From Escherichia coli (GTDB lineage: Bacteria; Pseudomonadota; Gammaproteobacteria; Enterobacterales; Enterobacteriaceae), in the NCBI RefSeq assembly GCF_044324785.1, contig NZ_CP172127.1: DNA of 64,000 nt; one strand, 5' to 3'. This document shows, piece after piece, positions 1 through 45,625 of the stretch. Both the position numbers and the translations under genes were made by a program. The notes under the pieces were generated by a model, which did not search any database, was not told where the DNA came from, and saw nothing but the letters and a program-made list of their open reading frames with translations. Every line of letters begins with the position of its first letter. The first letter of the stretch is position 1.

Positions 1-2
1 AA

Positions 3-7534: not shown

Positions 7535-7577
7535 AGGGCAAAGCGGAAACGGATAAGACGGGCATAAATGAAGAAGA

Positions 7578-7624
7578 AATGGCGCGCCCTGCAGGATTCG
7601 AACCTGCGGCCCACGACTTAGAAG
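7578..7624. repeat. 47-bp direct repeat identical to the 3' part of tRNA-Arg (57505-57551); distal attachment-site copy of the integrated element
   Basis: Exact 47-nt match read by eye (aatggcgcgccctgcaggattcgaacctgcggcccacgacttagaag) at both positions; identity breaks on both sides. Confidence 0.8.
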
Positions 7625-8046
7625 TTCCTAGAACGACATTTTAAGTCAACAACTTACCGCGCCATCTCTGCGCTCACACGTCCCACTACCTCAAAACATG
7701 TAAAGCCTTGCAAGCCATTGTGAGGCCTTATGTGTCTCAGTTTTGTCCCTCTTTTTTGTACCAAAAAACATAGCAATTGAGGATAAACCTCATGCTATTT
7801 TCGCTTATATGCCTCTAAAGGCATGGCGCTTAAATAGATAAAAACACCACAAAAGCATAAAAAACCACACAGTAAAACCGCAACATAAAACAATAACAGA
7901 TAATTAAACCAAAAACAGATAGCGCATTGTGATAATCATTCAATACTAAACAAAATATAAACAGTGGAGCAATATGTAATTGACTCATTAAGTTAGATAT
8001 AAAAAATACATATTCAATCATTAAAACGATTGAATGGAGAACTTTT

Positions 8047-9000
8047 ATGCGGGCGAAACTTCTGGGAATAGTCCTGACAACCCCTATTGCGATCAGCTCT
8101 TTTGCTTCTACCGAGACTATATCGTTTACTCCTGACAACATAAATGCGGACATTAGTCTTGGAACTCTGAGCGGAAAAACAAAAGAGCGCGTTTATCTAG
8201 CTGAAGAAGGAGGCCGAAAAGTCAGTCAACTCGACTGGAAATTCAATAACGCTGCAATTATTAAAGGTGCAATTAATTGGGATTTGATGCCCCAGATATC
8301 TATTGGGGCTGCGGGCTGGACTACTCTCGGCAGCCGGGGTGGCAATATGGTCGATCAGGACTGGATGGATTCCAGTAACCCCGGAACCTGGACAGATGAA
8401 AGTAGGCACCCTGATACACAACTCAATTATGCTAACGAATTTGATCTGAATATCAAAGGCTGGCTCCTCAACGAACCCAATTACCGCCTGGGACTCATGG
8501 CCGGATATCAGGAAAGCCGTTATAGCTTTACAGCCAGAGGTGGTTCCTATATCTACAGTTCTGAGGAGGGATTCAGAGATGATATCGGCTCCTTCCCGAA
8601 TGGAGAAAGAGCAATCGGCTACAAACAACGTTTTAAAATGCCCTACATTGGCTTGACTGGAAGTTATCGTTATGAAGATTTTGAACTCGGTGGCACATTT
8701 AAATACAGCGGCTGGGTGGAATCATCTGATAACGATGAACACTATGACCCGGGAAAAAGAATCACTTATCGCAGTAAGGTCAAAGACCAAAATTACTATT
8801 CTGTTGCAGTCAATGCAGGTTATTACGTAACACCTAACGCAAAAGTTTATGTTGAAGGCGCATGGAATCGGGTTACGAATAAAAAAGGTAATACTTCACT
8901 TTATGATCACAATGATAACACTTCAGACTACAGCAAAAATGGTGCAGGCATAGAAAACTATAACTTCATCACTACTGCTGGTCTTAAGTACACCTTTTAA
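8047..9000 (+). CDS. ompT: Outer membrane protease OmpT (omptin family)
   Basis: 317-aa ORF with signal peptide; sequence matches recalled OmpT (MRAKLLGIVLTTPIAISSFA…). Confidence 0.9.
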   Translation: MRAKLLGIVLTTPIAISSFASTETISFTPDNINADISLGTLSGKTKERVYLAEEGGRKVSQLDWKFNNAAIIKGAINWDLMPQISIGAAGWTTLGSRGGNMVDQDWMDSSNPGTWTDESRHPDTQLNYANEFDLNIKGWLLNEPNYRLGLMAGYQESRYSFTARGGSYIYSSEEGFRDDIGSFPNGERAIGYKQRFKMPYIGLTGSYRYEDFELGGTFKYSGWVESSDNDEHYDPGKRITYRSKVKDQNYYSVAVNAGYYVTPNAKVYVEGAWNRVTNKKGNTSLYDHNDNTSDYSKNGAGIENYNFITTAGLKYTF

Positions 9001-9230
9001 CAACGTTAAATAGATTTTCTCCCCGGTGGTATTGTATCGCCCCGGGGAATTTGTTTACCGTTAAGAGCAACAATATCCCCTAAACTTGTAAGCATTTAAC
9101 CTGCCTCCTAACGTGTAAGCTCTTACCACAACACTAGACTCAATATATTCAAATTCGCTATGCCGTGACATCATTTAACACCTTGTAATTCATCGCCATA
9201 ATTGATTTAATTCACAAATAAAACTATAAC

Positions 9231-9899
9231 ATGGTGAAATTGATGAAAAAAAACACAGATGATGGGGCTAAAATTTACACACCACTTACCCTAAAGCTTT
9301 ATGACTGGTGGGTTTTGGGAGTATCAAATCGGCTTGCATGGGGATGTCCTACAAAGGAACACCTTCTTCCACACTTTCTGGAACATTTAGGTAACAACCA
9401 TCTGGATATTGGTGTTGGAACTGGGTTTTACCTTACTCACGTACCTGAGAGTAGTCTGATATCTTTAATGGATTTGAACGAAGCTAGCCTGAACGCGGCA
9501 TCTACAAGGGCTGGGGAATCAAAAATTAAACATAAAATTAGCCATGATGTTTTTGAACCTTATCCCGCGGCGTTACATGGCCAATTTGATTCCATTTCCA
9601 TGTTTTACCTTCTTCACTGCCTGCCTGGAAATATATCTACAAAAAGCTGTGTAATACGCAATGCGGCGCAGGCCTTAACTGACGATGGAACTCTATACGG
9701 AGCCACAATTCTTGGCGATGGAGTTGTGCACAATAGCTTCGGTCAAAAACTGATGCGCATTTACAATCAGAAAGGCATCTTTTCAAACACAAAAGATTCC
9801 GAAGAAGGCTTAACACATATACTCTCAGAGCATTTCGAGAATGTTAAAACCAAGGTTCAAGGTACTGTAGTAATGTTTTCCGCTTCAGGGAAAAAATAG
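9231..9899 (+). CDS. Class I SAM-dependent methyltransferase (YbcY-like)
   Basis: 222-aa ORF with methyltransferase motif I (LDIGVGTGFYL); AT-rich codon usage compared with flanking phage genes. Confidence 0.65.
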   Translation: MVKLMKKNTDDGAKIYTPLTLKLYDWWVLGVSNRLAWGCPTKEHLLPHFLEHLGNNHLDIGVGTGFYLTHVPESSLISLMDLNEASLNAASTRAGESKIKHKISHDVFEPYPAALHGQFDSISMFYLLHCLPGNISTKSCVIRNAAQALTDDGTLYGATILGDGVVHNSFGQKLMRIYNQKGIFSNTKDSEEGLTHILSEHFENVKTKVQGTVVMFSASGKK

Positions 9900-10403
9900 C
9901 ATCCAACCGCAGCACGTTCTTGCATACGCCGTGTCTGCGGTTTAATTTTCACTCTCAAATATTGTAGTTAAGTACAATCATGATTCTTTGGACTATATAA
10001 ATTTTCTTGTAATTAGTTCTTTAGCCGAAATTTTAAAACAATTATTTATTCAAGGGATGGACTCTATTAGGAACTATCTCAAAAACATGAATAACCACCA
10101 TCTTACGATTGAATTATTTTACAGAGTATTCTTATTGAGAAAAACAACAGCAGGTACACCAAATAATATAGAAATGTAAATTTAGGTTCATTAATCTTTT
10201 GAGTTACAACCTAAACTTTCCGTTAATCACTAAGATATCAATAGATTATACTCACTGAGCGCACGTTTTTTACAATTATTATTTCTCACATCAAAATGCG
10301 CATACCAATCTGTTATTTGACACTTTCTTATTTGTTACTAGAGTTAATTGGGTGCTGACAAGGCACATGTTATTTACAATTTGAAAATCAGAGGAGAAAT
10401 GAT

Positions 10404-10586
10404 ATGACCGAACATCGTGGCGGTGCAGGTAATTTCGCTGAAGATCGACAAAAAGCTTCTGACGCTGGTCGTAAAGGCGGCCAACATAGTGGCGGTAATT
10501 TTAAAAACGATCCACAAAGAGCATCAGAAGCAGGGAAAAAAGGTGGTCAGAATAGCCATGGTGGCGGCCGTAAATCTGACTCTTAA
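10404..10586 (+). CDS. KGG-repeat stress-induced protein (YciG/YmdF family)
   Basis: 60-aa Gly-rich ORF (MTEHRGGAGNFAEDRQKASDAGRKGGQHSGG…) closely resembling YciG; strong GAGGAG RBS upstream. Confidence 0.8.
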   Translation: MTEHRGGAGNFAEDRQKASDAGRKGGQHSGGNFKNDPQRASEAGKKGGQNSHGGGRKSDS

Positions 10587-10658
10587 TTTATTACCCCCTA
10601 CATTCGTGAATAACTGAAGCTAACTGCGAGCCTACGGGCTCGCAGTGAAAACTCTGGA

Positions 10659-11165
10659 GTGATTATGCAAATTAAATCTGTTGAAGATATCTTCATCCAC
10701 TTATTATCGGATACATACAGCGCTGAGAAACAACTAACAAAGGCACTGTCTAAACTTAGTCGCTCTGCATATAGTGATAAATTAACCGCTGCTTTTCAGT
10801 CACATCTTGATGAGACACATGGTCAAATTGAACGCATCGATCAGGTTGTTGATTCTGAAGATGGTCTTAAATTGAAAAGAATTAAGTGTGCCGCAATGGA
10901 AGGACTTATCGAAGAGGCGAATGAGGTAATTGAAAGCACTGATAAAAATGAAGTACGTGATGCAGCATTGATTGCTGCAGCACAAAAAGTAGAGCACTAT
11001 GAAATTGCCAGTTATGGCACTTTGGTAACACTCGCTGAGCAATTAGGATATAAAAAAGCGGCTAAACTCCTGAAAGAAACACTGGAAGAGGAAAAAGCTA
11101 CTGATGTCAAATTAACAGATCTGGCATTTAATAACGTTAATAAAAAAGCTCAGGATAACTCCTGA
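10659..11165 (+). CDS. Ferritin-like DUF892 protein, YciF-like
   Basis: 168-aa ORF highly similar to recalled E. coli YciF (…IEDVFIHLLSDTYSAEKQLT…HYEIASYGTL…). Confidence 0.8.
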   Translation: MIMQIKSVEDIFIHLLSDTYSAEKQLTKALSKLSRSAYSDKLTAAFQSHLDETHGQIERIDQVVDSEDGLKLKRIKCAAMEGLIEEANEVIESTDKNEVRDAALIAAAQKVEHYEIASYGTLVTLAEQLGYKKAAKLLKETLEEEKATDVKLTDLAFNNVNKKAQDNS

Positions 11166-11201
11166 ACTATAGACTTCAATTTCTTTTAGGATAAACAGAT
11201 T

Positions 11202-22943: not shown

Positions 22944-23272
22944 CAGTTCACCACCTGTTCAAACTCTGCGCTGAACTCAACACGCAGCATACTGACCCGC
23001 GACGACCATTTTGCGCAGGTCACCTTTATCTGCCGCCACTCATAAGGCGGCGTCCACAGAAAGGATTTCCAGCCCCCGTGCTCTTCCAGAAACGACTCCA
23101 GTACCGTGGCCTCCTCACGGGGGACAGAAAGCGTCACGCTGTACGTTTTCAGGTTGGCATTCAGCCCGGCAGGCGCTCGCTGAGAATAGCCATCACCAAA
23201 GCGCACCTTTCTTACAGAAGGGACCGAAGCCACATCCATACCGGGTTTCACTTTCCAGCGGAAGGTCTTCAT
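22943..23272 (-). CDS. M: Minor tail protein M
   Basis: 109-aa ORF matching lambda gpM; start overlaps H stop. Confidence 0.9.
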   Translation of the reverse strand: MKTFRWKVKPGMDVASVPSVRKVRFGDGYSQRAPAGLNANLKTYSVTLSVPREEATVLESFLEEHGGWKSFLWTPPYEWRQIKVTCAKWSSRVSMLRVEFSAEFEQVVN

Positions 23273-25830
23273 CGTCCACCTCCGGAGAACAGGCCACCAT
23301 CACGCATCTGTGTCTGAATTTCATCACGGGCACCCTTGCGGGCCATGTCATACACCGCCTTCAGAGCAGCCGGACCTATCTGCCCGTTCGTGCCGTCGTT
23401 GTTAATCACCACATGGTTATTCTGCTCAAACGTCCCGGACGCCTGCGACCGGCTGTCTGCCATGCTGCCAGGTGTACCGACATAACCGCCGGTGGCATAG
23501 CCGCGCATCAGCCGGTAAAGATTCCCCACGCCAATCCGGCTGGTTGCCTCCTTCGTGAAGACAAACTCACCACGGTGAACAATCCCCGCTGGCTCATATT
23601 TGCCGCCGGTTCCCGTAAATCCTCCGGTTGCAAAATGGAATTTCGCCGCAGCGGCCTGAATGGCTGTACCGCCTGACGCGGATGCGCCGCCACCAACAGC
23701 CCCGCCAATGGCGCTGCCGATACTCCCGACAATCCCCACCATTGCCTGCTTAAGCAGAATTTCTGTCATCATGGACAGCACGGAACGGGTGAAGCTGCGC
23801 CAGTTCTGCTCACTGCCGGTCAGCATCGCCGCCATATTCTGTGCAATACCATCAAAGGTCTGCGTGGCTGCACTTTTTACCTGCGACATACTGTCCGTGG
23901 CGCTCTCTTCCCACTCACTCCAGCCGGACTTCAGGCCTGCCATCCAGTTCCCGCGAAGCTGGTCTTCAGCCGCCCAGGTCTTTTTCTGCTCTGACATGAC
24001 GTTATTCAGCGCCAGCGGATTATCGCCATACTGTTCCTTCAGGCGCTGTTCCGTGGCTTCCCGTTCTGCCTGCCGGTCAGTCAGCCCCCGGCTTTTCGCA
24101 TCAATGGCGGCCCGTTTTGCCCGTTGCTGCTGTGCGAATTTATCCGCCTGCTGCGCCAGCGCGTTCAGGCGCTCCTGATACGTAACCTTGTCGCCAAGTG
24201 CAGCCAGCTGGCGTTTGTACTCCAGCGTCTCATCTTTATGCGCCAGCAGGGATTTCTCCTGTGCAGACAGCTGGCGACGTTGCGCCGCCTCCTCCAGTAC
24301 CGCGAACTGACTCTCCGCCTTCCACAAATCCCGGCGCTGCTGGCTGATTTTCTCATTTGCTCCGGCATGCTTCTCCAGCGTCCGGAGTTCTGCCTGAAGC
24401 GTCAGCAGGGCAGCATGAGCACTGTCTTCCTGACGATCGCCCGCAGACACCTTCACGCCGGACTGTTTCGGCTTTTTCAGCGTCGCTTCATAATCCTTTT
24501 TCGCCGCCGCCATCAGCGTGTTGTAATCCGCCTGCAGGATTTTCCCGTCTTTCAGTGCCTTGTTCAGTTCTTCCTGACGGGCGGTATATTTCTCCAGCGG
24601 CGTCTGCAGCCGTTCGTAAGCCTTCTGCGCCTCTTCGGTATATTTCAGCCGTGACGCTTCGGTATCGCTCTGCTGCTGCGCATTTTTGTCCTGTTGAGTC
24701 TGCTGCTCAGCCTTCTTTCGGGCGGCTTCAAGCGCAAGACGGGCCTTTTCACGATCATCCCAGTAACGCGCCCGCGCTTCATCGTTAACAAAATAATCAT
24801 CCTTGCGCAGATTCCAGATGTCGTCTGCTTTCTTATACGCAGCCTCTGCCTTAATCAGCATCTCCTGCGCGGTATCAGGACGACCAATATCCAGCACCGC
24901 ATCCCACATGGATTTGAATGCCCGCGCAGTCCTGTCTGCCCAGGTCTCCAGCGTGCCCATGTTCTCTTTCAGGCGGCGGGTCTGGTCATCAAACCCTTTC
25001 GTTGCGGCCTCGTTCGCCGCCTGCAATGCCCCGGCTTCATCGCCGGAACGCTGCAACTGAGCAACATACGCAATCTGCTCCGCCGTCACGTTATGGAACT
25101 GGCGAGCCATCGCCGTCAGCCCCGACGTCGGGTCTGTGGTCAGCTTCCCGAAGGCTTCAGCGACCTTGTCCACCTCCACGCCGGATGCAGAGGAGAAACG
25201 CGCCACACTCTGGCTGATGGACGCAATCTGAGCCTCACCGCTTACCCCCGCCTTAACCAGTGCGCTGAGTGACTCGCTGGTCTGGTTAAACGTCAGCCCT
25301 GCCGCCTGCCCGGCTCTGGACAGGACCAGCATACGATCTGCCGTCAGTCCCGCCTGATTGCCGGAAAGGACCAGCGTTTTGTTGAAATCGGACAGGGTTG
25401 AGTTGCCCTGATACCAGGCATACGCCAGCGCACCGGTCGCCACCGCCAGCGAGGTGGCCCCCACCATCGGCAGGGTGATCGCACCGGCAAGCCCCCTGAA
25501 CATGGGGATCATCCCGCCGAAGGAGTCCTTCACCTGCCCCCCCTGTTGCAGCAGGATCAGCCACGGACTTTGCCCGCCTGCAAGCTGCGTGGCCACGTCG
25601 GTGAACTGTGCAGGCAGCATACGCATGGCGGCTTTATACTGCCCGACGGAAATCCCCGCTTTCTGTGCAGCCAGCGCCTGTCGGCTCAGCGACTGTTCAA
25701 CGACTGCCGCTGTTTTTTTCGCATCACTTTCCGTACCGGAAAAATGACGCCTGACTCTGGCCATCTGCTCGTCAAATCTGGCCGCATCCAGACTCAAATC
25801 AACGACCAGATCGCCTACCGGTTCAGCCAT
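23269..25830 (-). CDS. H: Tail tape measure protein H
   Basis: 853-aa ORF, same length as lambda gpH; coiled-coil-rich. Confidence 0.9.
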   Translation of the reverse strand: MAEPVGDLVVDLSLDAARFDEQMARVRRHFSGTESDAKKTAAVVEQSLSRQALAAQKAGISVGQYKAAMRMLPAQFTDVATQLAGGQSPWLILLQQGGQVKDSFGGMIPMFRGLAGAITLPMVGATSLAVATGALAYAWYQGNSTLSDFNKTLVLSGNQAGLTADRMLVLSRAGQAAGLTFNQTSESLSALVKAGVSGEAQIASISQSVARFSSASGVEVDKVAEAFGKLTTDPTSGLTAMARQFHNVTAEQIAYVAQLQRSGDEAGALQAANEAATKGFDDQTRRLKENMGTLETWADRTARAFKSMWDAVLDIGRPDTAQEMLIKAEAAYKKADDIWNLRKDDYFVNDEARARYWDDREKARLALEAARKKAEQQTQQDKNAQQQSDTEASRLKYTEEAQKAYERLQTPLEKYTARQEELNKALKDGKILQADYNTLMAAAKKDYEATLKKPKQSGVKVSAGDRQEDSAHAALLTLQAELRTLEKHAGANEKISQQRRDLWKAESQFAVLEEAAQRRQLSAQEKSLLAHKDETLEYKRQLAALGDKVTYQERLNALAQQADKFAQQQRAKRAAIDAKSRGLTDRQAEREATEQRLKEQYGDNPLALNNVMSEQKKTWAAEDQLRGNWMAGLKSGWSEWEESATDSMSQVKSAATQTFDGIAQNMAAMLTGSEQNWRSFTRSVLSMMTEILLKQAMVGIVGSIGSAIGGAVGGGASASGGTAIQAAAAKFHFATGGFTGTGGKYEPAGIVHRGEFVFTKEATSRIGVGNLYRLMRGYATGGYVGTPGSMADSRSQASGTFEQNNHVVINNDGTNGQIGPAALKAVYDMARKGARDEIQTQMRDGGLFSGGGR

Positions 25831-26257
25831 ACCGGACTCCTCCTGCGATCCCTTCTGATACTGTCATCAGCATTACGTCATCCTCCGTCATGTCCGCCAC
25901 ATCCGGGGAAGCGGGGATAACTTCATTCCCGTCCGGGCCAAAGCGGACACCTCCGGCAAGCCCTGCCGCTTTCTGCATCAGCACATCATCTTCAGGCTCT
26001 TCGTCAGCCTCGCGCCGGTTCAGCAGACTGAAATCCAGCGGATGCATATCCGGATCGCTGAAAAACAGGCTGAGCACGGTGTACGTCAGCCCGGAAAAGT
26101 GCATATCCAGCAGAACATCATGAAAATAATGGGTACTGTAAAAGCGGTGCCAGTCGGCATACTCCGTGGATGACATCCCGGCAAGCATGGCACGCCAGTC
26201 GGGTCGCCCCATCTCACGCGCCAGTTTCAGGGCAAAACTCAGCTCACCGTCGAACAC
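25823..26257 (-). CDS. T: T segment of tail assembly chaperone G-T (expressed only as -1 frameshift fusion with G)
   Basis: ORF in -1 frame relative to G, beginning at the slippery heptamer; matches lambda gpT. Confidence 0.8.
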   Translation of the reverse strand: MFDGELSFALKLAREMGRPDWRAMLAGMSSTEYADWHRFYSTHYFHDVLLDMHFSGLTYTVLSLFFSDPDMHPLDFSLLNRREADEEPEDDVLMQKAAGLAGGVRFGPDGNEVIPASPDVADMTEDDVMLMTVSEGIAGGVRYG

Positions 26258-26661
26258 TTTCCCGCAGAAACAGGCTCTGCGGGCCCGGCGTCCTCTGTCT
26301 GTTCAGGGGCATTATTCACCACAAACTCATACATACCAGACAGCCGGTACACCACGTTTTCAGCATGAGAAATTGCCTCCGTGGGCCAGGTGGTAAGCAC
26401 TTCCTGCTCAATCTGTTTAACGGCTTCATTCATGGACGGCATCTGCGTCTTCTGCGGATGGTTATGCCACAGGGACATCGCCACCAGAAACGCGCCGGTT
26501 CTGATGGCGTCTTCCACAGTAAACTTCCGGTTGCTGTCTGACTCCGCCTGTTCTGCCTGCCGTTTCATCAGGGCGAGATGCTCAATGCGCTGCAGGGCTG
26601 ACAGTTCAGAAAGCGTGACGGTCACACCGTTATGTTCAAATGATTCGGTTTTCAGGAACAT
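26239..26661 (-). CDS. G: Tail assembly chaperone G
   Basis: 140-aa ORF matching lambda gpG; slippery site near its 3' end. Confidence 0.85.
   Translation of the reverse strand: MFLKTESFEHNGVTVTLSELSALQRIEHLALMKRQAEQAESDSNRKFTVEDAIRTGAFLVAMSLWHNHPQKTQMPSMNEAVKQIEQEVLTTWPTEAISHAENVVYRLSGMYEFVVNNAPEQTEDAGPAEPVSAGKCSTVS
26257..26263 (-). other. Programmed -1 ribosomal frameshift heptamer GGGAAAG (G to G-T)
   Basis: Plus-strand CTTTCCC at 26257-26263 is GGGAAAG on the coding strand, at the G/T overlap. Confidence 0.75.
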
Positions 26662-26676
26662 CGCTGACTCTCCGGA

Positions 26677-27417
26677 TTAACTGGCGGTGACGGTAATTTC
26701 TGCAACCGCAGCAAACTCACCATTACCGGATACAACCGGAATGTTGACCTTGCCTGCAGCAACGCCGTTCACGGTGATGGTCATACCACTGACCGACACG
26801 GTGGCTTTTGTTTTATCCGCAGACACCGCACGAAAGCTCTTGTCGGTTACGCCCTCCGGCTGGAAGGCCACGGTCAGCGTGGTGCTCTGCCCTTTCACCA
26901 CCGAGGTGCTGGCAGGCGTCACGGTCATGCCGGTTGCCGCTGTTACCGTGCTGCGATCTTCTGCCATCGACGGACGTCCCACATTGGTGACTTTCACCGT
27001 GCGGGTGATCACTTCCTTCGCCGTCACCGCCTTACCGATACTGCTGACCCAGCCACGGAACACATCGACCGTGCCGTTCGGGAAGCGGATTTTATAGGCA
27101 CGGGTATCGCCTTCATTAAACCACGCCAGCAGCGCCTGCTGCCCCTGCTCTCCGGGCATCCACGCCAGCGTGAAGCTGGTATCTCCGGCAGATTTCTGCC
27201 CCTGCCCGGTCGCAGTCCAGTCTGCATCTTCATCATCGAGATAGCTGTCGTCATAGGACTCAGCGGTCAGTTCGCCGGGCGTCAGGTCTTTAACTTTTGC
27301 CAGACGCGACCAGTCAACGTCTGAAAGCGGATTCGCATAAGGGTCACCGCTCCCCTTATAAACCCACAGGGTGGTCCCGGCACCTTTCACCGGCATTGTA
27401 GGATTTGGTACAGGCAT
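26677..27417 (-). CDS. V: Major tail protein V (with C-terminal Ig-like domain)
   Basis: ORF 26677..27447; start placed at [14 protein letters not shown]… as in lambda gpV (246 aa). Confidence 0.9.
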
Positions 27418-27424
27418 AGCGTCC

Positions 27425-27820
27425 TCACATTTCATAGGTAATGACATAAGTCAGATCGGCTGAACTCCACAGGCCCGCATCATCGTCGCGCCGGTAGTCA
27501 TAGCCGCTGGCCACCATACTGGTGATCAAATCTGACAGTGCCGGGATATCGCTCATCACCGGATAAATCCGGGACTCCATCCACGCATCCAGCTCTGAAT
27601 CCGGCACCTGAGCAGGCAGGAAAACTTCGATATGCAGCTCCGCCTGCCAGGTATCGCTGTCCAGCTCTTCGCCCGTGTATTCAGCGCCGGTGAGATAAAC
27701 GGCAACTGCCGGAAAATCCGCCTCATCAAAAACAGCGGGGCGACCATCAAAAAACGTCGCCCCGGTGTCATGCTTCTCCAGTGCATCCAGTACGGCTGCA
27801 CGGAGTTCAGTATGTTTCAT
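27425..27820 (-). CDS. U: Tail terminator protein U
   Basis: 131-aa ORF matching lambda gpU. Confidence 0.9.
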
Positions 27821-28395
27821 CGCTTTATTACCATCCTCAGTTGATGCTGCAGCGCATAGCCCAGCTCTTTCGGAAGACGTTCACGCCGTATCCGCTCAAT
27901 ATTTTGTTTAAACGCCGTGGTCAGCGGCTCCGCCATCGGGATTTTCACCACATCAATGGGGTAACGGTTTTTCCCGGCCACACGCTGCATGACATGCCAC
28001 CGGCCATTTTTCAGTTGCTGAATAAACGCGCCGGGAATACGACGGTTACCCACCACAAGCACGCTGCCGCCACCTTTCAGGGATGAACGCTGCCCCTTTT
28101 TACGACGCCTGCGGCGCGAAAGGACAACCCGCGCATTACCCAGCTTGATTACGGGCAAATCCCCCCGGTTAACTTTGATTCTGGCCTGCGGATTTTTGAC
28201 CGTGGCCCTTTTCAGCCTGGCCCTTTCCTTTACCAGTTTCCGGCGTACCTTTGTCTCACGGGCAACCTGTGACGCCGACTGCGATATCGCGGATGAAGCA
28301 ACGCGGTTAATGGCCATTGCGGCGGCACCAGGCACCGCCGTTTTGCTGATACGGCTGAGGTTTTCAACGGCCTGCTCAAGACCTTTTATGGCCAT
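27817..28395 (-). CDS. Z: Tail completion protein Z
   Basis: 192-aa ORF matching lambda gpZ. Confidence 0.9.
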   Translation of the reverse strand: MAIKGLEQAVENLSRISKTAVPGAAAMAINRVASSAISQSASQVARETKVRRKLVKERARLKRATVKNPQARIKVNRGDLPVIKLGNARVVLSRRRRRKKGQRSSLKGGGSVLVVGNRRIPGAFIQQLKNGRWHVMQRVAGKNRYPIDVVKIPMAEPLTTAFKQNIERIRRERLPKELGYALQHQLRMVIKR

Positions 28396-28406
28396 ACATC
28401 CCCCTT

Positions 28407-28760
28407 TCAGCGGCGACGGTTAACGGCAGGCGGTACGCCCCGTCCAAGCCAGAGATGACAACTTCCGCCATCATCCGGCGAAACCCGATCTACCCAGAAA
28501 TTTTCCTCACCGATGGTCAGCGTGTCTCCACGCCGCAGCTGCCGCACCTCATCAGTCCGGACAAACAGGGACGGGCTGGAGCCTTCAACGCGCACGCCCT
28601 GTCCGGCATAGCTGATATTTTCAGGGTCATCAAAAACACCACGTATCACCGCACCTGACTGCTCACCGGATGTAATGGTGGCTGACGTTCCCATGTACCC
28701 GCGTATCGTTTCATCGGCGCGGGCAATGGCAGCATCGAACAGGTTATCGAAATCAGCCAC
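28407..28760 (-). CDS. FII: Head-tail joining protein FII
   Basis: 117-aa ORF matching lambda gpFII. Confidence 0.9.
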   Translation of the reverse strand: MADFDNLFDAAIARADETIRGYMGTSATITSGEQSGAVIRGVFDDPENISYAGQGVRVEGSSPSLFVRTDEVRQLRRGDTLTIGEENFWVDRVSPDDGGSCHLWLGRGVPPAVNRRR

Positions 28761-28771
28761 AGCGCCTCCCG

Positions 28772-29170
28772 TTATTGCATTCTGGCCAGGCCGCGCTCTG
28801 TCATTTCGGCTGCCACACCGGCAGAGACACGAAACGCCGTTCCCGGCAGCACAAATGCCACAGGTTCATCCCGCGTGGCGTGAAGTGCATCAGTATGCAG
28901 CTTCACCAGTGCCACGACCGTGACCAGTTCAGACGTATCCAGAATCACGGTATCCGGCTGCGCTGATCCCACCTCATTTTCATGTCCGGTCAGCACATTT
29001 TCCCGGCTGAGAGGGGTGTCCTGACCGGCAGTTTCATCCGTGTCATCAAGCTCCTCTTTCAGCTCTGCCACACGGAGCGCCAGTTCTTCTTTCGTCCCCG
29101 TCAGGCTGACATCACGGTTCAGTTGTTCACCCAGCGAGCGGAGACGGGCAATCAGTTCATCTTTCGTCAT
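28772..29170 (-). CDS. FI: DNA packaging protein FI
   Basis: ORF 28772..29209; start placed at internal MTKDELIARLRSLGEQ… as in lambda gpFI. Confidence 0.85.
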   Translation of the reverse strand: MTKDELIARLRSLGEQLNRDVSLTGTKEELALRVAELKEELDDTDETAGQDTPLSRENVLTGHENEVGSAQPDTVILDTSELVTVVALVKLHTDALHATRDEPVAFVLPGTAFRVSAGVAAEMTERGLARMQ

Positions 29171-29211
29171 GGACTCCTCCACAGAGAAACAATGGCCCCG
29201 AAGGGCCATGA

Positions 29212-30237
29212 TTACGCCAGTTGTACGGACACGAACTCATCAGGGTCAGCCAGCAGCATCAGCGGTGCTGACTGAATCATGGTGAACTCACGCGCCGGAT
29301 CGCCGGTGGTCACCCAGTTTTTCGGGTAACGGGCAGAGGCGTTAATGCCTTCGCGCTGTGCGTCCGCATCCTGAATGCAGCCATAGGTGCGCAGACCGCG
29401 TGCCTGAGTGTTCCCCAGCACCATCGTGTTGTCCGGCAGGAAGTTCTTTTTGACGCCGTTTTCCACGTACTGTCCGGAATACACGACGATGGCCACATCG
29501 CCATACATCCCCTTATAGGACACCGCTTTGCCCAGGTCTTTCACCGCTGTCTCCAGCTCGGAATTAGAGCCACGACGGGTATCCAGCTTCTCCTTGACGG
29601 CTTTGAAGGAACGGAACAGCGCCCAGCCTTTCGGATCGAACACGATGATATTCACCACACCGCTGGCGTTCAGCGCGTAGGCTTCGATATCGTCGGTCGG
29701 GTCATACGTGGACTTGTCACGCTTGCTCCACTCCGTGCCGCCGGACTGCGTGATGTTATTCTCCTCACTGCGGCCCATATCCACCTCAACCGGATCGAAG
29801 GCTTCACCGGTCATGGTGTATTTGCCCTTAAGCACGGCAGAAACTGCCTGCATCTCTTCGACCTGAGCAATGGCCAGCTCTTCGTCACGCATGTTCTGCA
29901 TGATGATGCGACGGCGGCGGTAAGCCGGGTCCGCCAGATTCTGCGGATCTTCATCCGGCAGGCGACGCAGGGTCATCTGCGGATTCACTTCATGCTTCGG
30001 CTTGACATATCCCGGCGTAAATTCAGAGGTGGAGCCGCCACGGGAACGGATAACCTCACCGGAAACAATCGGCGAAACGTACAGCGCCATGTTTACCAGT
30101 CCCGGAATTTGTGAGAGATAGACTTTCTCCGTGGTGAAGGGATAGCTCTCACGGAAAAAGAGACGCAGAAACAGCGGATCAAACTTAAATTTCTGCTCAT
30201 TTGCCGCCAGCAGTTGGGCGGTTGTGTACATCGACAT
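29212..30237 (-). CDS. E: Major capsid protein E
   Basis: ORF 29212..30264; start placed at MSMYTTAQLLAANEQ… (341 aa) as in lambda gpE. Confidence 0.9.
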   Translation of the reverse strand: MSMYTTAQLLAANEQKFKFDPLFLRLFFRESYPFTTEKVYLSQIPGLVNMALYVSPIVSGEVIRSRGGSTSEFTPGYVKPKHEVNPQMTLRRLPDEDPQNLADPAYRRRRIIMQNMRDEELAIAQVEEMQAVSAVLKGKYTMTGEAFDPVEVDMGRSEENNITQSGGTEWSKRDKSTYDPTDDIEAYALNASGVVNIIVFDPKGWALFRSFKAVKEKLDTRRGSNSELETAVKDLGKAVSYKGMYGDVAIVVYSGQYVENGVKKNFLPDNTMVLGNTQARGLRTYGCIQDADAQREGINASARYPKNWVTTGDPAREFTMIQSAPLMLLADPDEFVSVQLA

Positions 30238-30292
30238 AAAAAAATCCCGTAAAAAAAGCCGCACAGGCGGCCTTTAGTGATGAAGGGTAAAG

Positions 30293-30625
30293 TTAAACGA
30301 TGCTGATTGCCGTTCCGGCAAACGCGGTCCGTTTTTTCGTCTCGTCGCTGGCAGCCTCCGGCCAGAGCACATCCTCATAACGGAACGTGCCGGACTTGTA
30401 GAACGTCAGCGTGGTGCTGGTCTGGTCAGCAGCAACCGCAAGAATGCCAACGGCAGCACCGTCGGTGGTGCCATCCCACGCAACCAGCTTACGGCTGGAG
30501 GTGTCCAGCATCAGCGGGGTCATTGCAGGCGCTTTCGCACTCAATCCGCCGGGCGCGGTTGCGGTATGAGCCGGGTCACTGTTGCCCTGCGGCTGGTAAT
30601 GGGTAAAGGTTTCTTTGCTCGTCAT
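30293..30625 (-). CDS. D: Head decoration protein D
   Basis: ORF 30293..30631; start at [13 protein letters not shown]… (110 aa) as in lambda gpD. Confidence 0.9.
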
Positions 30626-30634
30626 AAACATCCC

Positions 30635-31934
30635 TTACACTGGTGTGTTCAGCAAATCGTTAACGGCATCAGATGCCGGGTTACCTGCAGCCAGCGGTGC
30701 CGGTGCCCCCTGCATCAGACGATCCAGCGCAGTGTCACTGCGCGCCTGTGCACTCTGTGGTGCTGCGGCCAGAATGCGGCGGGCCGTTTTCACGGTCATA
30801 CCGGGGGTTTCTGCCAGCACGCGTGCCTGTTCTTCGCGTCCGTGAGCCTCCTCACAGTTGAGGATCCCCATAATGCGGCTGTTTTCTGCCGCAACCGCTG
30901 CGGTGATCTGCGCGTTCACGTCCGGCTGCGCCGCGCTGGCGTTCTCGCCCTCCGTCGCTGGCACCACGTCAGTAACGTCAGCCTGCGAAGCAGTGGCTGA
31001 AACAGTTGTTGATTGAGTCTCTTTGGTCATTCGCCCTCCTGAGAGACGGGATTTACGTGCAACCAGTGCATCACGCATGACGGTGATCGCATCGGTGCTG
31101 TTAACAAGTTCATCAGCCAGTCCGGCATCAATGGCCTCCTGACCGCTGTACACTGCAGCCTCGGTATCCAGCACAGCCTGCACGGACAGGCCGGTATATG
31201 CCGACACCTTCTGCGCAAACATCTGGCGGGTTGCGTCCATCCGGGACTGCAGTGTCTCCCGGACGTCATCCGGAAGATGGCTGTAGGGGTTGCCATCCAC
31301 CTTATGGCTGCCGCTGTAAATCAGCGTGATTTCCACACCCTGTTTCTCCAGCGCAGCACCGTAATTACTGTGAGCCATCATGACGCCGATGGAGCCTGTC
31401 CGGGCGGTCTGCGTGACCAGACGCCGGGAGGCGGCACTGGCAAGCAACTGACCTGCACTGCAGTTCATGTCGTTGGCAAGCGCCCATACCGGTTTTATGT
31501 CACGCACACGGGCGATGATGTCAGCGCAGTCAAATGCCCCCGCCACCATCCCGCCGGGCGTGTCCATATCGAGCAGAATGCCGTCCACCATCGGATCGCT
31601 GGCAGCCTGTTGCAGACGGGCGATAATGCCGTTGTAACCGGTCATCCCCGAGTACGGCTGCAGCGCCCGCGTCCGGCTGACCAGCGTGCCGGACACCGGC
31701 AGCACGGCGATGCCGTTCATGACCTGATAACTGCGGGCCTGTCGTGGTCCGTCATCATCACCGGATAATGCCAGCGTCGCGAGTGCCTCCTGGGCAGTCA
31801 GGCTGTCGCCGGACACCGCATCCGTCAGGCTGCTGATCCCAAGCTGGCCTGCAAGCGCACAAAAGAAAACCCGCGCATAGGCGGGTTCAAGCATCAGCGG
31901 CTCATTAAAGGCCATGCTGGCAATATGCGGGAGA

Positions 31935-37910: not shown

Positions 37911-38404
37911 TGCTGGCCCCACAAACAGATTTCACGCTCAATCTCACGACGAGTCATGAGACCTTTCCATTGCTTACCGCCAGCATATGTCCAGCGACGT
38001 AGTTGATCACATGCGCCTTTGATATCGCCCTGGTTTATTTTGCGAAGAAGCGTCGATGTTCTGAAATTGCCAGCACCCACGTTGTAAACGAATGAGTAAA
38101 GAGCGCCGCGCGTTGTTTCCGGTATATCGACTTTGATGTACGGGTTAATTTGTCTGGCGACAGTGGCAAGGTCTTTATTCAAGAGTGCTTTGCATTCTGC
38201 TTTGGTATACGTTTTACCGAGCATGATGTCTTTTCCTGTATGCCCGTGACATACAGTCCATACACCAACAATATCTTTGTATGGTATGTAGCTGACACCT
38301 TCCAGACCATCGTTACCACTTGGGCCAGTGATTAACACTGATGCTATAGCAATTGCTCCGCCACCAATAGCAGCAGCAACGGCTTTTCGTAATGATGGAG
38401 GCAT
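37907..38404 (-). CDS. R: Endolysin with N-terminal signal-anchor-release domain (T4-lysozyme-like, phage 21 R / RrrD type)
   Basis: 165-aa ORF; Gly/Ala-rich hydrophobic N-terminus ([20 protein letters not shown]) then lysozyme fold; matches recalled DLP12 RrrD. Confidence 0.85.
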
Positions 38405-38619
38405 TATTCACCTCTCGCAGCCTTGCGCTTATCTTCTTTAATCTTGAAATAAAGGTTTGTCAGGTACGTCAGCAGGCCAAATACCAGGCTACCCAGCACA
38501 CCTATTGCTGCCCACTGTGAGGGCGTGACTTTATCGAGCAGCTGTAAAAACCAGTAGCCAGCACTGCCTGCGGAGGTGCCGTAGGCAATGCCCGTTGTTA
38601 ACTTATCCATGGATTTCAT
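38404..38619 (-). CDS. S: Pinholin (S21 / EssD type)
   Basis: 71-aa ORF with two TM segments directly upstream of the endolysin; stop/start overlap with R. Confidence 0.8.
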
Positions 38620-39888: not shown

Positions 39889-40848
39889 TTAATTTACCAT
39901 CAGTCTTAGAGCCAGTTCGTCCGGATAGGGATCGAAGTAATTCTGTGTAAGCAAGTAGTCATTAGGATACTCACCCAGATAATGCTTCAGCAGAGTCAAC
40001 GGCGCAAGAAGAGGTAATGTGCCAGAACGATAGTTAAGTATAACCTCGCTCAACTCTTTACGCTGGCGTGTACTTAAGTAGTTACTAAAATACCCCTGTA
40101 TATGCATCAGCACATTCGTGTGATTTTTACGTGATGCAGGTTTTCTGAGAATCGCCATCAGCTTATCACGATACACCTCAAAGTATGATTCAAGGTCCGC
40201 CCACTCGTGTATTGCAGCCACAAATGGTCCCATATCTTTATAGCCTGCCTGACTATGCGCCAACAACTGAAGCTTATAACGACTATGAAAAGCTAATAAC
40301 TCTCTTCTTGATAATTTCTCCTTGTAAAGGTGATTGAGCTCATGCAAAGCAAAAACTCTTTCAACAAAATTCTCACGAAGCACTGGATCATGTAATCGCC
40401 CATCCTCTTCAACCGGTAGCCAGGAAAACTTTTCCATCAAAGTGCTCGTAAATAGTCCCACTCCATCTTTACGACCTCGATTACCATTTTCATCATAGAC
40501 ACGCACGCGCTCCATGCCACAGCTGGGAGATTTAGCACAAACCACAAACCCCGATACATCCTTTAATTTGTCCATATAAGAACGACTAAACTCTGTCATT
40601 CTCTCTGTCACATCCTCATTCTGGTCGTGGCTGAAACACATCCGTATATTTCCTTGCGTCGAGCGCACAAGACGTAGAGCAGGACGCGGAACTGGCAGCC
40701 CTATAGCCATTTCCGGACATACTGGTCTGAATGTTACCCATTCCACTAATTTGTCCATTAAAAAGTCAGCTCTTTTGTGACCACCATCAAAACGAACAGC
40801 AGAACCGGCCAAACAACCGCTGATTCCAATCACAGGTTTTTTTATCAT
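39889..40848 (-). CDS. DUF523/DUF1722-type protein (possible 2-thiouracil desulfurase-like family), phage cargo
   Basis: 319-aa ORF; N-terminal PVIGISGCLAG… region and C-terminal YbgA-like region; family assignment from memory only. Confidence 0.45.
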   Translation of the reverse strand: MIKKPVIGISGCLAGSAVRFDGGHKRADFLMDKLVEWVTFRPVCPEMAIGLPVPRPALRLVRSTQGNIRMCFSHDQNEDVTERMTEFSRSYMDKLKDVSGFVVCAKSPSCGMERVRVYDENGNRGRKDGVGLFTSTLMEKFSWLPVEEDGRLHDPVLRENFVERVFALHELNHLYKEKLSRRELLAFHSRYKLQLLAHSQAGYKDMGPFVAAIHEWADLESYFEVYRDKLMAILRKPASRKNHTNVLMHIQGYFSNYLSTRQRKELSEVILNYRSGTLPLLAPLTLLKHYLGEYPNDYLLTQNYFDPYPDELALRLMVN

Positions 40849-41040: not shown

Positions 41041-41565
41041 ATGAAGTTATGGCCTGTGTTGACTGGCATTGCACTCTCTTTCACTCTTATAGCATGTAAG
41101 GCCCCGACACCACCTAAAGGTGTGCAGCCGATTACAAATTTTGACGCCAACCGCTACCTCGGAAAATGGTATGAAATAGCTCGCCTCGAGAACCGGTTCG
41201 AACGTGGTCTGGAACAGGTCAGCGCTACTTATGGAAAACGGAACGACGGAGGGATTCGTGTACTTAACCGTGGATACGATCCAACGAAAAATAAATGGAG
41301 CGAGAGCGAAGGTAAAGCATACTTTACTGGAGATACTAAAACTGCAGCGTTGAAGGTTTCGTTTTTTGGCCCCTTCTATGGTGGCTATAATGTAATCAAA
41401 CTGGATGATGAGTATAAGTATGCTCTTGTCAGTGGCCCGAACAGAGAATACCTATGGATTCTGGCAAGGACCCCAACTATTCCAGATAAAGTAAAAGCAG
41501 ACTATGTGCGAACCGCTCAAAAGTTGGGATTCAATGTCAATGAATTATTATGGGTTAAACAATAA
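41041..41565 (+). CDS. Outer-membrane lipocalin (Blc-like lipoprotein)
   Basis: 174-aa ORF with lipobox (LIAC) and lipocalin motifs (…NRYLGKWYEIARL…SFFGPFYGGYNVI…); paralog-level similarity to E. coli Blc. Confidence 0.8.
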   Translation: MKLWPVLTGIALSFTLIACKAPTPPKGVQPITNFDANRYLGKWYEIARLENRFERGLEQVSATYGKRNDGGIRVLNRGYDPTKNKWSESEGKAYFTGDTKTAALKVSFFGPFYGGYNVIKLDDEYKYALVSGPNREYLWILARTPTIPDKVKADYVRTAQKLGFNVNELLWVKQ

Positions 41566-43802: not shown

Positions 43803-44600
43803 TTACTCTCTGGAAGCTTTTCTTATCTCTCTTGGTGTTATATTAAAACGATTATGAAATCTTTCAGTAAAACGAGAAGGACACTTATAACCATTTTCTC
43901 TGGCAATCTCGCTTATAGGTTTTACCGTCGTTTGTATAGCAGACAACGCATTATTTAACCTCACATCGTCCAGTATACTTTGGAAACTTACCCCCTCGCT
44001 TGCTAGACGGCGATGTAATGTAGAAACAGAAATGTAGAGATATCGAGCAACCTTGTTTGCTGTCCATTTTGTGCCGGGTTCGGATAGCAGCAGGTTATAA
44101 CAACGACTTATCAATGATTGTTTACTATATGATAAAAGTAAATGATTAACATGATTCACTCCTAACGAAAGTAGAACGCCCATTGCTAAGTGCTCCTGAA
44201 TTTTAGTTGAGAAGCCTCGGGAAACAGATGTTTTTAGTTGCTCCCAACAATATATTAACTCAGGATTCTGAGGTAAAAAGAAACTTGTTTTGTTACGTAT
44301 TTGATCAGTTACCGTATAAAGTTTTTGGAAACTCTCAATTAAATCAATGGGTAAGTAAAGCATTTCTGCAAGATAAAGCCCTGCTTCAGGATAATTCTCA
44401 ATATAAAATTCATAACCACAAGGAAATAATATTATTTGATTATTATCAACAGTTAAAGTATGCGTCTCCCAATTGATAACTTTCTTTCCCTGACGGATAC
44501 GACACAAAGCTGGCATAAGAGGCTTAACCCTATGAATCTCATGATGTTTATGCATCCGTATTTCTTCGATCTTTAAGTTAGTCTTACCTCTTGCCAGCAT
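43803..44600 (-). CDS. ybcM: AraC-family transcriptional regulator YbcM
   Basis: 265-aa ORF with C-terminal AraC HTH; matches recalled DLP12 YbcM. Confidence 0.8.
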
Positions 44601-44609
44601 ACTCTCACC

Positions 44610-45161
44610 CTACTTTATCTCATAAACTGGTGTTATCTCAGCGGTTGCGATTTTATTAGCATTAAGCATATAACCAACTAACGCTCCGCTGGAGTTAGAA
44701 TCTACAGGAATCTTTTCAGTTTTTAGAGCCCATACTTTAAACTGGTAATGATGTGGTTTATCTCCTTTAGGAGGACATGCGCCACCAAACCCAGCATAGC
44801 CAAAATCATTTCGGCCTTGAACAGCACCAGTCGGCAGTTTTGTTCCATCACGTCTCCCTGCATCAACGGGCAAATATGTTACTGTTGCTGGAATATTAAC
44901 AACAGTCCAATGCCACCAACCACTGCCTGTAGGTGCATCTGGATCATATACAGTTACGGCAAAGCTTTTGGTACCTTCAGGAACACCAGACCAGGTTAAT
45001 GAGGGCGATGTATTACCACCTTCACACCCAAATCCAGAAAAGACATGAGACGTTGTAAGTTGCTCTCCTGTTTTTATTTCATTACTAGTGACCTGAAATG
45101 CCGCAGCCTGCGCAGAAAATGTTATGAATGCCAATACAGTTGAAACGATAAGTGTTTTCAT
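44610..45161 (-). CDS. ybcL: Periplasmic PEBP/Raf-kinase-inhibitor-like protein YbcL
   Basis: 183-aa ORF with signal peptide; matches recalled YbcL. Confidence 0.8.
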   Translation of the reverse strand: MKTLIVSTVLAFITFSAQAAAFQVTSNEIKTGEQLTTSHVFSGFGCEGGNTSPSLTWSGVPEGTKSFAVTVYDPDAPTGSGWWHWTVVNIPATVTYLPVDAGRRDGTKLPTGAVQGRNDFGYAGFGGACPPKGDKPHHYQFKVWALKTEKIPVDSNSSGALVGYMLNANKIATAEITPVYEIK

Positions 45162-45625
45162 AAAAACCTCTTTGTTATGACCTATCGTTATTTTATTTGA
45201 TATTCCTTTATCTCATTATGCATAAAGGCGCAATGTTCATGCAAAAGCAATCACAATTGTACCCCCAACCCAATTATTTGCCACAATATACACAAAGCAC
45301 ATTGATACTATCTAAAAACTCTGCTTTATTATTAGTAATACCTACGAAAGTCGGTGTTATTTTTTAACCTACCATTCAAAATACGTGACATACACCATTT
45401 TGCTCATAATAATTTGTCACGTATTTTCAGTATTTGAATCTGCGACCAAGAGTTCTCACCTAACAAATGATTAAGATTGTATAGCTCATTTACTACCCCA
45501 ATACAGCCGTACAAAACTCGCTTGTGGGAGCAAACAAAGTAATTACCCATTAAGTTTCGTCAAAGATAATTAATTCTATCTTGCACTTTATCACCATAGC
45601 ATAACTTAAAATCCGAGATCATTAT

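What the first reader, a model, noticed from the sequence alone, without database searches (positions are those of the whole stretch)
26239..26263. Conserved -1 programmed frameshift site for the G-T tail chaperone
The canonical slippery heptamer GGGAAAG is present at the G/T overlap in the correct frame relationship (T in -1 relative to G), so the GT fusion should be made at low frequency as in lambda.
Basis: seen in the sequence. Interest (0 to 1): 0.3.

Follow-up and report, generated by a model that had tools for sequence, protein, structure and literature searches.

The report
Lambda G/T tail-chaperone frameshift site
This is the textbook phage lambda G/T ribosomal frameshift signal, carried base-for-base unchanged in a lambda-like prophage of an E. 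coli chromosome; it is real and correctly read, but long known and ordinary.

Summary
The observation and the interpretation are both correct. GGGAAAG lies at window 26263..26257 on the minus strand and is read in gene G (26661..26239) as G GGA AAG. A -1 slip there gives a continuous 279-aa G-T fusion that ends at 25823. The 839-nt G-T segment is 100% identical to phage lambda and sits in a 1,598-nt run of perfect identity. Lambda is where this frameshift was first demonstrated (Levin et al. 1993; gpG:gpGT about 30:1). The fusion carries the lambda G chaperone and T domains, lies between the major tail gene V and tape-measure gene H, and T has no usable ribosome-binding site of its own. In 160 related viral contigs plus 10 phage records, a shift-prone heptamer always occupies the same junction. 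Its letters vary (GGGAAAG, GGAAAAG, AAAAAAG, AGAAAAG, GGCAAAA, GGAAAAA); only the A AAR lysine codon is invariant. A downstream RNA helix that looked promising in 10 sequences did not survive testing on 64. The host element is a roughly 50-kb mosaic lambdoid prophage at the argU/DLP12 site. Verdict: confirmed, already known, low interest.

The parts
26257..26263 (-). Slippery heptamer GGGAAAG, read as G GGA AAG in the G frame and GGG AAA G in the -1 (T) frame
   Evidence: corresponds to lambda 10109-10115; listed as the lambda G/GT slippery sequence in PMC3296357 Table 1 and as G_GGA_AAG in PMC7618472
26239..26661 (-). Gene G, tail assembly chaperone gpG (140 aa), the zero-frame product; stop codon at 26241..26239
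   Evidence: 100% identical to lambda G 9711-10133; PF06894 E=5.7e-61; TIGR01674 phage_lambda_G equivalog, 219 bits; phrog_42
25823..26263 (-). T reading frame (-1 relative to G) from the heptamer to its stop at 25825..25823; it encodes the T domain that exists only as the C-terminal part of gpGT
   Evidence: GKVFDGELSF...GVRYG*; PF06223; TIGR01715 phage_lam_T, 189 bits; identical to lambda T 10115-10549
25823..26661 (-). Complete G-T frameshift cassette encoding the 279-aa gpGT fusion (junction ...PVSAGK/VFDGEL...)
   Evidence: fusion built both ways gives the identical product; phrog_32165, a 290-position family, matches G at positions 1-142 and T at 140-285
26239..26302 (-). Shift window: the 64 nt in which both the zero and -1 frames are open (upstream -1-frame TGA at 26305..26303; G stop at 26241..26239). 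It contains a single X XXY YYZ heptamer
26677..27417 (-). Gene V, major tail tube protein, immediately upstream of G (defining synteny)
   Evidence: lambda V 8955-9695 maps here
23269..25830 (-). Gene H, tape measure protein (853 aa), immediately downstream; its ATG overlaps the end of T by 8 nt and has a strong Shine-Dalgarno
   Evidence: Shine-Dalgarno duplex -10.3 kcal/mol at 7-nt spacing

Best explanation
This is the phage lambda G/T programmed -1 ribosomal frameshift site, carried by a lambda-type prophage. Ribosomes translating G usually read through G GGA AAG and stop five codons later, which makes the abundant chaperone gpG (140 aa). A few percent of ribosomes slip back one base on the heptamer. 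The single E. coli tRNA-Lys (anticodon mnm5s2UUU) re-pairs from AAG to AAA, and tRNA-Gly re-pairs from GGA to GGG. Those ribosomes continue in the T frame and make gpGT (279 aa). gpG and the G part of gpGT coat the tape-measure protein gpH. The T part recruits the tail-tube protein gpV. Both chaperones then leave, so neither is in the finished tail. The frameshift fixes the gpG:gpGT ratio at about 30:1. Shown here: the sequence, frames, fusion product, domains, synteny, identity to lambda, lack of an independent T start, and conservation. Taken from the literature: the frameshift frequency, the tRNA mechanism and the chaperone roles. Inferred: that this prophage copy behaves like lambda, because the cassette and 1.6 kb around it are identical and the host is E. 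coli.
For: Heptamer in the G frame as X XXY YYZ, with a continuous 279-aa fusion. The G-T segment is 839/839 nt identical to lambda NC_001416 and lies in a 1,598-nt identical run. G and T domains are found on the fusion. Gene order is V-G-T-H. T-frame start codons have no usable Shine-Dalgarno: best -4.3 kcal/mol at 1-nt spacing, against -6.6 for G and -10.3 for H at 7 nt. It is the only one of 14 GGGAAAG copies in the window with the required ORF architecture. A shift-prone heptamer sits at the same aligned junction in all 12 phage-record sequences and all 160 IMG/VR loci, even where the T domain is only about 36-50% identical. N15 and LLS records explicitly annotate the homologous site as a -1 frameshift. 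Literature: lambda gpG/gpGT made by -1 frameshifting at GGGAAAG, zero frame kept about 96% of the time, sensitive to tRNA-Lys U34 thiolation (PMC3296357); 30:1 ratio and chaperone mechanism (PMC5009743); G_GGA_AAG (PMC7618472); shiftiness of A_AAG with the sole E. coli tRNA-Lys (PMC5009743).
Against: Nothing in the sequence argues against it. No expression data exist for this particular prophage. The RefSeq records for lambda and for the closest E. coli genome annotate T as a stand-alone CDS without a slippage join, which I read as an annotation convention rather than as evidence. No stimulatory RNA element could be demonstrated, so the efficiency rests on the heptamer alone, which fits the low rate.
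Confidence: 0.97

Rival explanations
1. T is an independent gene translated from its own start (the GTG at 26257 or an internal ATG), as RefSeq annotates it, and the heptamer is incidental.
For: The ORF finder and the RefSeq/GenBank records list T as a separate 144-aa CDS starting at the GTG. Some phage records start T at a later ATG.
Against: The GTG begins with the last base of the heptamer, and its best anti-Shine-Dalgarno pairing is -4.3 kcal/mol at only 1-nt spacing. The internal ATGs score -1.9 to -2.3. The T frame stays open upstream of the heptamer and the junction Gly/Lys-Lys aligns in all relatives. PHROGs holds a full-length G-T fusion family. The literature describes gpGT, not free gpT, as the product.
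Confidence: 0.015
2. The fusion arises from transcriptional slippage of RNA polymerase on the A run, not from ribosomal slippage.
For: Some relatives have longer A runs (AAAAAAG, GGAAAAA). Transcriptional slippage is a known alternative route to frameshift products (PMC5009743).
Against: Here the run is only three A's, which from general knowledge is far below the lengths that support polymerase slippage. The conserved feature is codon phase (A AAR in the zero frame), which matters to ribosomes and not to polymerase. Frameshift frequency responds to tRNA-Lys modification (PMC3296357).
Confidence: 0.01
3. The site is a relic in a decayed prophage and no longer functions.
For: The element is integrated at argU, the site of the defective prophage DLP12 in E. 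coli K-12 (K-12 detail from my own knowledge), and it carries homologues of DLP12 cargo genes.
Against: Lambda 1-18474 (nu1 to J) is present at 99.3% identity, with intact ORFs across the tail region examined (window 22000-31000) and 0-4 differences per gene up to J. Both 47-bp att repeats and an integrase gene are present. The nearest relatives are phage genome records (PhiR34_1, PhiR68_2, IdasGreatGrand).
Confidence: 0.01

Closest known systems
Bacteriophage lambda genes G and T (gpG/gpGT), -1 frameshift at G GGA AAG (Levin, Hendrix & Casjens 1993)
   Same: Everything. All 839 nt of G-T are identical, as are 1,598 nt around the heptamer. The flanking genes V and H are the same, and the host species is the same.
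   Different: Only the vehicle. This is a mosaic prophage of about 50 kb integrated at tRNA-Arg(TCT)/argU with a different integrase, immunity region and cargo, not lambda at attB.
G/GT-type tail assembly chaperone frameshifts of other long-tailed phages (Xu, Hendrix & Duda 2004), e.g. N15 genes 14/15 and phage LLS genes 11/12
   Same: Two overlapping ORFs between the major tail and tape-measure genes, a -1 shift near the end of the first ORF, and the same G and T protein families.
   Different: Those phages use G GAA AAG, where the P-site codon cannot re-pair cleanly. More distant relatives use G GCA AAA or G GAA AAA followed directly by a TAG stop. The window has the canonical tandem-slip heptamer.
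E. coli dnaX -1 frameshift (A AAA AAG)
   Same: Same host ribosome and the same slippage-prone tRNA-Lys on an A AAG A-site codon (PMC5009743).
   Different: dnaX shifts at about 50% and depends on an upstream Shine-Dalgarno-like element and a downstream stem-loop, and its shifted product is the shorter one. Here there is no Shine-Dalgarno-like motif in the 30 nt upstream, no conserved downstream structure, the efficiency is about 3-4%, and the shifted product is the longer one.
Retroviral gag/gag-pol frameshifting
   Same: Same logic: one mRNA, with a fixed low ratio of extended to short product that is needed for assembly (PMC3296357, PMC7618472).
   Different: Eukaryotic ribosomes, different heptamers, and dependence on a strong downstream stem-loop or pseudoknot. 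The extended product there is an enzyme, not an assembly chaperone.

Membership tests
Lambda-type G/GT tail assembly chaperone frameshift | Two overlapping ORFs located between the major tail protein gene and the tape measure gene | tested here: met
   V 27417..26677, G 26661..26239, T frame 26263..25823 and H 25830..23269, all on the minus strand
Lambda-type G/GT tail assembly chaperone frameshift | The second ORF is in the -1 frame relative to the first and is open across the end of the first | tested here: met
   The -1 frame is open from 26302 to 25826, and the overlap with G is 64 nt
Lambda-type G/GT tail assembly chaperone frameshift | Slippery heptamer X XXY YYZ in the zero frame inside the overlap | tested here: met
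   G GGA AAG at 26263..26257; it is the only such heptamer in the overlap
Lambda-type G/GT tail assembly chaperone frameshift | The downstream ORF lacks its own translation initiation signals | tested here: met
   T-frame starts pair with the anti-Shine-Dalgarno at -1.9 to -4.3 kcal/mol with unusable spacing, against -6.6 for G and -10.3 for H
Lambda-type G/GT tail assembly chaperone frameshift | Protein homology to gpG and gpT | tested here: met
   PF06894 and PF06223; TIGR01674 and TIGR01715 equivalogs above their cut-offs; phrog_42, phrog_39 and phrog_32165
Lambda-type G/GT tail assembly chaperone frameshift | The shift site is conserved in position among homologues | tested here: met
   12 of 12 phage-record sequences and 160 of 160 IMG/VR loci have an A AAR-containing heptamer at the aligned junction
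Lambda-type G/GT tail assembly chaperone frameshift | The fusion protein is actually made at a low, fixed frequency and is required for tail assembly | not testable with these tools
   Established for the identical lambda sequence in the literature; no expression data exist for this locus
Phage lambda itself (Lambdavirus lambda) | Genome-wide identity to lambda | tested here: not met
   Only lambda 1-18474 is matched at 99.3%. The rest is patchy at 80-97% or absent, and integration is at argU with a different integrase. The cassette is lambda's; the prophage is a mosaic relative.
Stimulator-dependent bacterial -1 frameshift (dnaX / IS911 type) | A conserved downstream stem-loop or pseudoknot 5-9 nt after the heptamer | tested here: not met
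   The single-sequence fold has z = -1.55. The helix predicted from 10 sequences fails on 64: pairs with double changes 10 against 8.8 shuffled, reached by 120 of 500 shuffles, and core pairs are broken in about half the sequences. RNAalifold on the 64 sequences finds -1.5 kcal/mol. There is no Rfam hit at the site.
Stimulator-dependent bacterial -1 frameshift (dnaX / IS911 type) | An upstream Shine-Dalgarno-like element about 10-14 nt 5' of the heptamer | tested here: not met
   The 30 nt upstream (GGACGCCGGGCCCGCAGAGCCTGTTTCTGC) contain no GGAG, GAGG or AGGA at that distance, and the region is not conserved among relatives

The most novel reading that the evidence does not exclude
The same prophage carries, in the Q-to-holin slot of its late operon, a RudS-type tRNA thiouridine desulfidase (39889-40848, minus strand). 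It is 93.4% identical to the RudS_vir of phage 1H12, one of the variants studied in the RudS paper (PMC11417400). The G:GT ratio is known to depend on 2-thiolation of tRNA-Lys U34 (PMC3296357), and that paper could not detect 2-thiouridine in its samples, so an effect on s2U34 is untested. The evidence therefore does not exclude that the phage tunes its own G/T frameshift frequency, or translation fidelity more widely, by altering host tRNA thiolation during late gene expression.
Probability: 0.03. Interest if true: 0.5.

Novelty: already known. Interest (0 to 1): 0.07.

Why it matters
It matters mainly as a correct annotation. gpGT should be annotated as a ribosomal-slippage join rather than as a free-standing T protein, which is how RefSeq lists it for lambda and for the closest E. 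coli genome. An intact cassette, together with a near-lambda head and tail gene block, suggests this prophage can probably build functional tails. Nothing here changes the understanding of frameshifting. The census of 160 relatives is a modest by-product. It shows that selection preserves the position and the lysine A AAR codon while the P-site codon is free to vary. It also shows that lineages with the weakest P-site re-pairing place the zero-frame stop directly after the heptamer.

Tried and rejected
1. Downstream stimulatory RNA structure. RNAalifold on 10 relatives predicted a helix (alignment columns 16-22 paired with 78-84, window 26248-26242 with 26186-26180) that starts 8 nt after the heptamer and encloses a hairpin. 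It beat all 500 shuffles and all slid controls. I then collected 160 more loci and re-tested the fixed structure on 64 distinct gap-free sequences. The measures that are robust to relatedness were at chance and core pairs were broken in 30-50% of sequences. An independent consensus fold found almost nothing. I rejected it as a family feature. It remains untestable within the lambda clade, where the protein sequence is nearly invariant.

2. Upstream Shine-Dalgarno-like stimulator: none at the right distance, and the region is not conserved.

3. Independent translation of T: no usable ribosome-binding site.

4. The heptamer count alone as evidence: GGGAAAG is not significantly enriched in the window, so I used ORF context instead.

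5. Rfam: no family matches at the site.

6. PDB sequence search with gpGT: no solved relative.

7. Xu et al. 2013 (PMC3762263) is not held in the library. Levin et al. 1993 is cited only through secondary sources. My recollection that they found no simple downstream structure could not be verified.

8. One text passage of PMC3296357 prints the heptamer as GGGTTTG, while its Table 1 gives GGGAAAG. I treated the former as a typographical slip.

Full report
**The observation**

The finding points to window 26239-26263. On the minus strand this stretch reads TCT GCG GGA AAG TGT TCG ACG GTG AGC TGA.
- GGGAAAG occupies 26263..26257.
- Gene G runs 26661..26239 (140 aa).
- The heptamer starts at offset 398 from the G ATG.
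- The G stop (26241..26239) follows five codons later.

The stated interval therefore spans exactly from the first base of the heptamer to the last base of the G stop.

**The fusion product**

The -1 frame read from the heptamer gives GKVFDGELSFALKLAREMGRPDW... and stays open for 146 codons, to the stop at 25825..25823. It is also open for 13 codons upstream, back to a TGA at 26305..26303. Joining G to this frame at the heptamer gives one continuous 279-aa protein, whichever way the slip is modelled.

**Is it more than chance?**

The heptamer alone is not. The window holds 14 copies against 7.9 expected, and 5 of 100 shuffles reach 14. The setting is what is unique.
- Only this copy combines 138 open zero-frame codons upstream, a zero-frame stop within 7 codons and a long -1 continuation.
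- It is the only X XXY YYZ heptamer in the 64-nt stretch where both frames are open.

**What it is**

- **Identity to lambda.** The 1,101 nt around the site match phage lambda at 99.9%. The 839 nt from the G start to the T stop are 100% identical to lambda 9711-10549, and the nearest differences lie 1,598 nt apart.
- **Gene order.** It is lambda's V-G-T-H.
- **Protein families.** The fusion carries Pfam PF06894 (lambda tail assembly chaperone G, residues 1-125, E = 5.7e-61) and PF06223 (minor tail protein T, residues 164-239). It also matches the NCBIfam equivalogs phage_lambda_G and phage_lam_T well above their cut-offs. PHROGs contains a 290-position family that G matches at positions 1-142 and T at 140-285, so full-length G-T fusions are already annotated in other phages.
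- **No solved structure.** No relative is found by sequence in the PDB.

**Literature**

- Lambda G/T is the founding case of this kind of frameshift. PMC3296357 lists GGGAAAG as the lambda G/GT slippery sequence. It states that the zero frame is kept about 96% of the time. It also shows that hypomodification of tRNA-Lys(UUU) at U34 raises frameshifting and lowers phage yield.
- PMC5009743 gives the 30:1 gpG:gpGT ratio and the mechanism. gpG and the G part of gpGT bind the tape measure gpH, the T part binds the tube protein gpV, and neither chaperone is in the virion.
- PMC7618472 writes the site as G_GGA_AAG.
- PMC5009743 explains why A_AAG is shift-prone in E. coli, which has a single tRNA-Lys that pairs better with AAA.
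- All of these cite Levin, Hendrix & Casjens 1993, which I could not read directly. Xu et al. 2013 is not held.

**Rivals**

- **Independent translation of T.** RefSeq annotates T as a separate CDS starting at the GTG whose first base is the last base of the heptamer. That GTG has only a -4.3 kcal/mol anti-Shine-Dalgarno match at 1-nt spacing. The internal ATGs score -1.9 to -2.3, against -6.6 for G and -10.3 for H at 7 nt.
- **Transcriptional slippage.** It is implausible on a run of three A's. It also does not explain why codon phase is what is conserved.
- **A decayed relic.** Lambda 1-18474 is present at 99.3%, with 0-4 differences per gene up to J, and both att repeats and an integrase are present.

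**Conservation**

I examined ten phage records whose GT protein is 90% down to 36% identical, and 160 IMG/VR loci retrieved with T-domain alignments. Every one has a shift-prone heptamer at the same aligned Gly/Arg/Lys-Lys junction, a zero-frame stop 0-5 codons later and a -1 frame of 111-154 codons. The heptamer counts in the 160 loci are:

| Heptamer | Loci |
|---|---|
| GGGAAAG | 78 |
| GGAAAAG | 64 |
| GGCAAAA | 11 |
| AGAAAAG | 3 |
| AAAAAAG | 2 |
| GGAAAAA | 2 |

The only invariant is an A AAR lysine codon that can re-pair as AAA. In the G GCA AAA and G GAA AAA lineages the zero-frame TAG follows the heptamer directly. N15 and LLS explicitly annotate their site as a -1 frameshift. 'Conserved' is therefore right, with the refinement that position and the lysine codon are conserved rather than the exact letters.

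**Stimulatory elements**

- The 100 nt downstream fold no better than shuffles (z = -1.55).
- A consensus fold of 10 relatives suggested a helix starting 8 nt after the heptamer, with apparent compensatory changes. It beat all the controls.
- That structure was derived from the same small alignment, so I fixed it and re-tested it on 64 distinct gap-free sequences.
- On the larger set, pairs with changes on both sides numbered 10 against 8.8 in shuffles (120 of 500 shuffles reach this). Further pair types numbered 26 against 25.2 (217 of 500). Several core pairs were broken in 30-50% of sequences.
- RNAalifold on the larger set found only four invariant pairs at -1.5 kcal/mol.
- No Shine-Dalgarno-like element lies in the 30 nt upstream, and Rfam has no match at the site.

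The site therefore appears to work through the heptamer alone, which is consistent with its low efficiency. A stimulator specific to the lambda clade cannot be excluded, because that clade is too uniform to test.

**Context**

The window is an E. coli chromosome.
- A 47-bp direct repeat at 7578-7624 and 57505-57551 overlaps the 3' end of tRNA-Arg(TCT) at 57507-57583. It bounds a prophage of about 50 kb.
- The prophage occupies the argU site, where K-12 carries the defective prophage DLP12 (K-12 detail from my own knowledge).
- Its head and tail block is lambda's. Its integrase, immunity region and cargo genes are not, and they resemble those of phages such as PhiR34_1 and IdasGreatGrand.

**Verdict**

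This is the lambda G/T frameshift site itself, already known in every respect, so interest is low.

Noticed in passing
window 39889-40848 (minus strand): A 319-aa ORF with a 2-thiouracil desulfurase (TudS) domain fused to DUF1722, i.e. a RudS-type tRNA 4-thiouridine desulfidase. It is 93.4% identical to the phage 1H12 protein studied as RudS_vir in PMC11417400. It sits between Q and the holin, where close relatives carry an OmpD porin, and is co-oriented with the late genes. That paper could not detect 2-thiouridine in its samples, so an effect on tRNA-Lys s2U34, which controls the G:GT ratio, is untested.
   Followed up: partly
window 7578-7624 and 57505-57551; tRNA-Arg(TCT) at 57507-57583 (minus strand): A 47-bp direct repeat that overlaps the 3' end of tRNA-Arg bounds a prophage of about 50 kb at the argU site (the DLP12 site of K-12, from my own knowledge). 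A tyrosine integrase gene lies at 56328-57491. The left repeat falls between the ompT and envY homologues.
   Followed up: partly
window 8047-12617: Cargo genes lie inside the att-bounded element beyond the tail-fibre genes: a homologue of ompT (named by position against strain A17), a SAM methyltransferase (9231-9899), two ORFs at the positions of A17's ferritin-like genes (10659-11708) and a manganese catalase (11727-12617). The same set is present in E. coli strain A17.
   Followed up: partly
window 12777-12975 (minus strand): A strong Rfam hit to the family IS009 (RF02111, 227.9 bits against a gathering score of 117). It lies inside the tail-fibre assembly ORF 12737-13318.
   Followed up: no
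window 17453-20866 (gene J, minus strand): Gene J carries 112 of the 128 differences from lambda in the head-tail block (3.3% against 0.35% or less in the other genes). Nucleotide similarity to lambda stops at lambda 18474, so the last 430 nt or so, which encode the receptor-binding C-terminal domain, are divergent. This suggests a different receptor specificity.
   Followed up: partly
window 43803-47152 (minus strand): Homologues of the DLP12 cargo genes lie in the nin region: a large serine recombinase (YbcK-like, 45626-47152), a PEBP-family protein (YbcL-like, 44610-45161) and an AraC-type regulator (YbcM-like, 43803-44600). A lipocalin gene lies at 41041-41565 on the plus strand.
   Followed up: partly
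L001 (lambda NC_001416) 2044-2478; L013 (E. coli A17) 37987-38421: RefSeq annotates T as a stand-alone CDS that starts at the GTG overlapping the heptamer, with no ribosomal-slippage join. Other phage records start T at a later ATG or call G 'hypothetical protein'. Only N15, LLS and HK630 mark the fusion or the shift site.
   Followed up: yes
L140-L145, L167 (GGCAAAA) and L139, L173 (GGAAAAA), heptamer at locus position 701-707: In distant relatives the shift site is G GCA AAA or G GAA AAA with the zero-frame stop TAG directly after it. P-site re-pairing is poor in these, so an adjacent stop codon may serve as the stimulator.
   Followed up: partly
L046 701-1093; L038 and L039 around 640-700: L046 encodes a T domain that lacks 15 residues (RAMLAGMSSTEYADW) after the conserved PDW motif. 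L038 has a zero-frame stop only 19 codons upstream of the heptamer, which suggests a disrupted G gene; L039 shares L038's 107-nt segment at the shift site.
   Followed up: no
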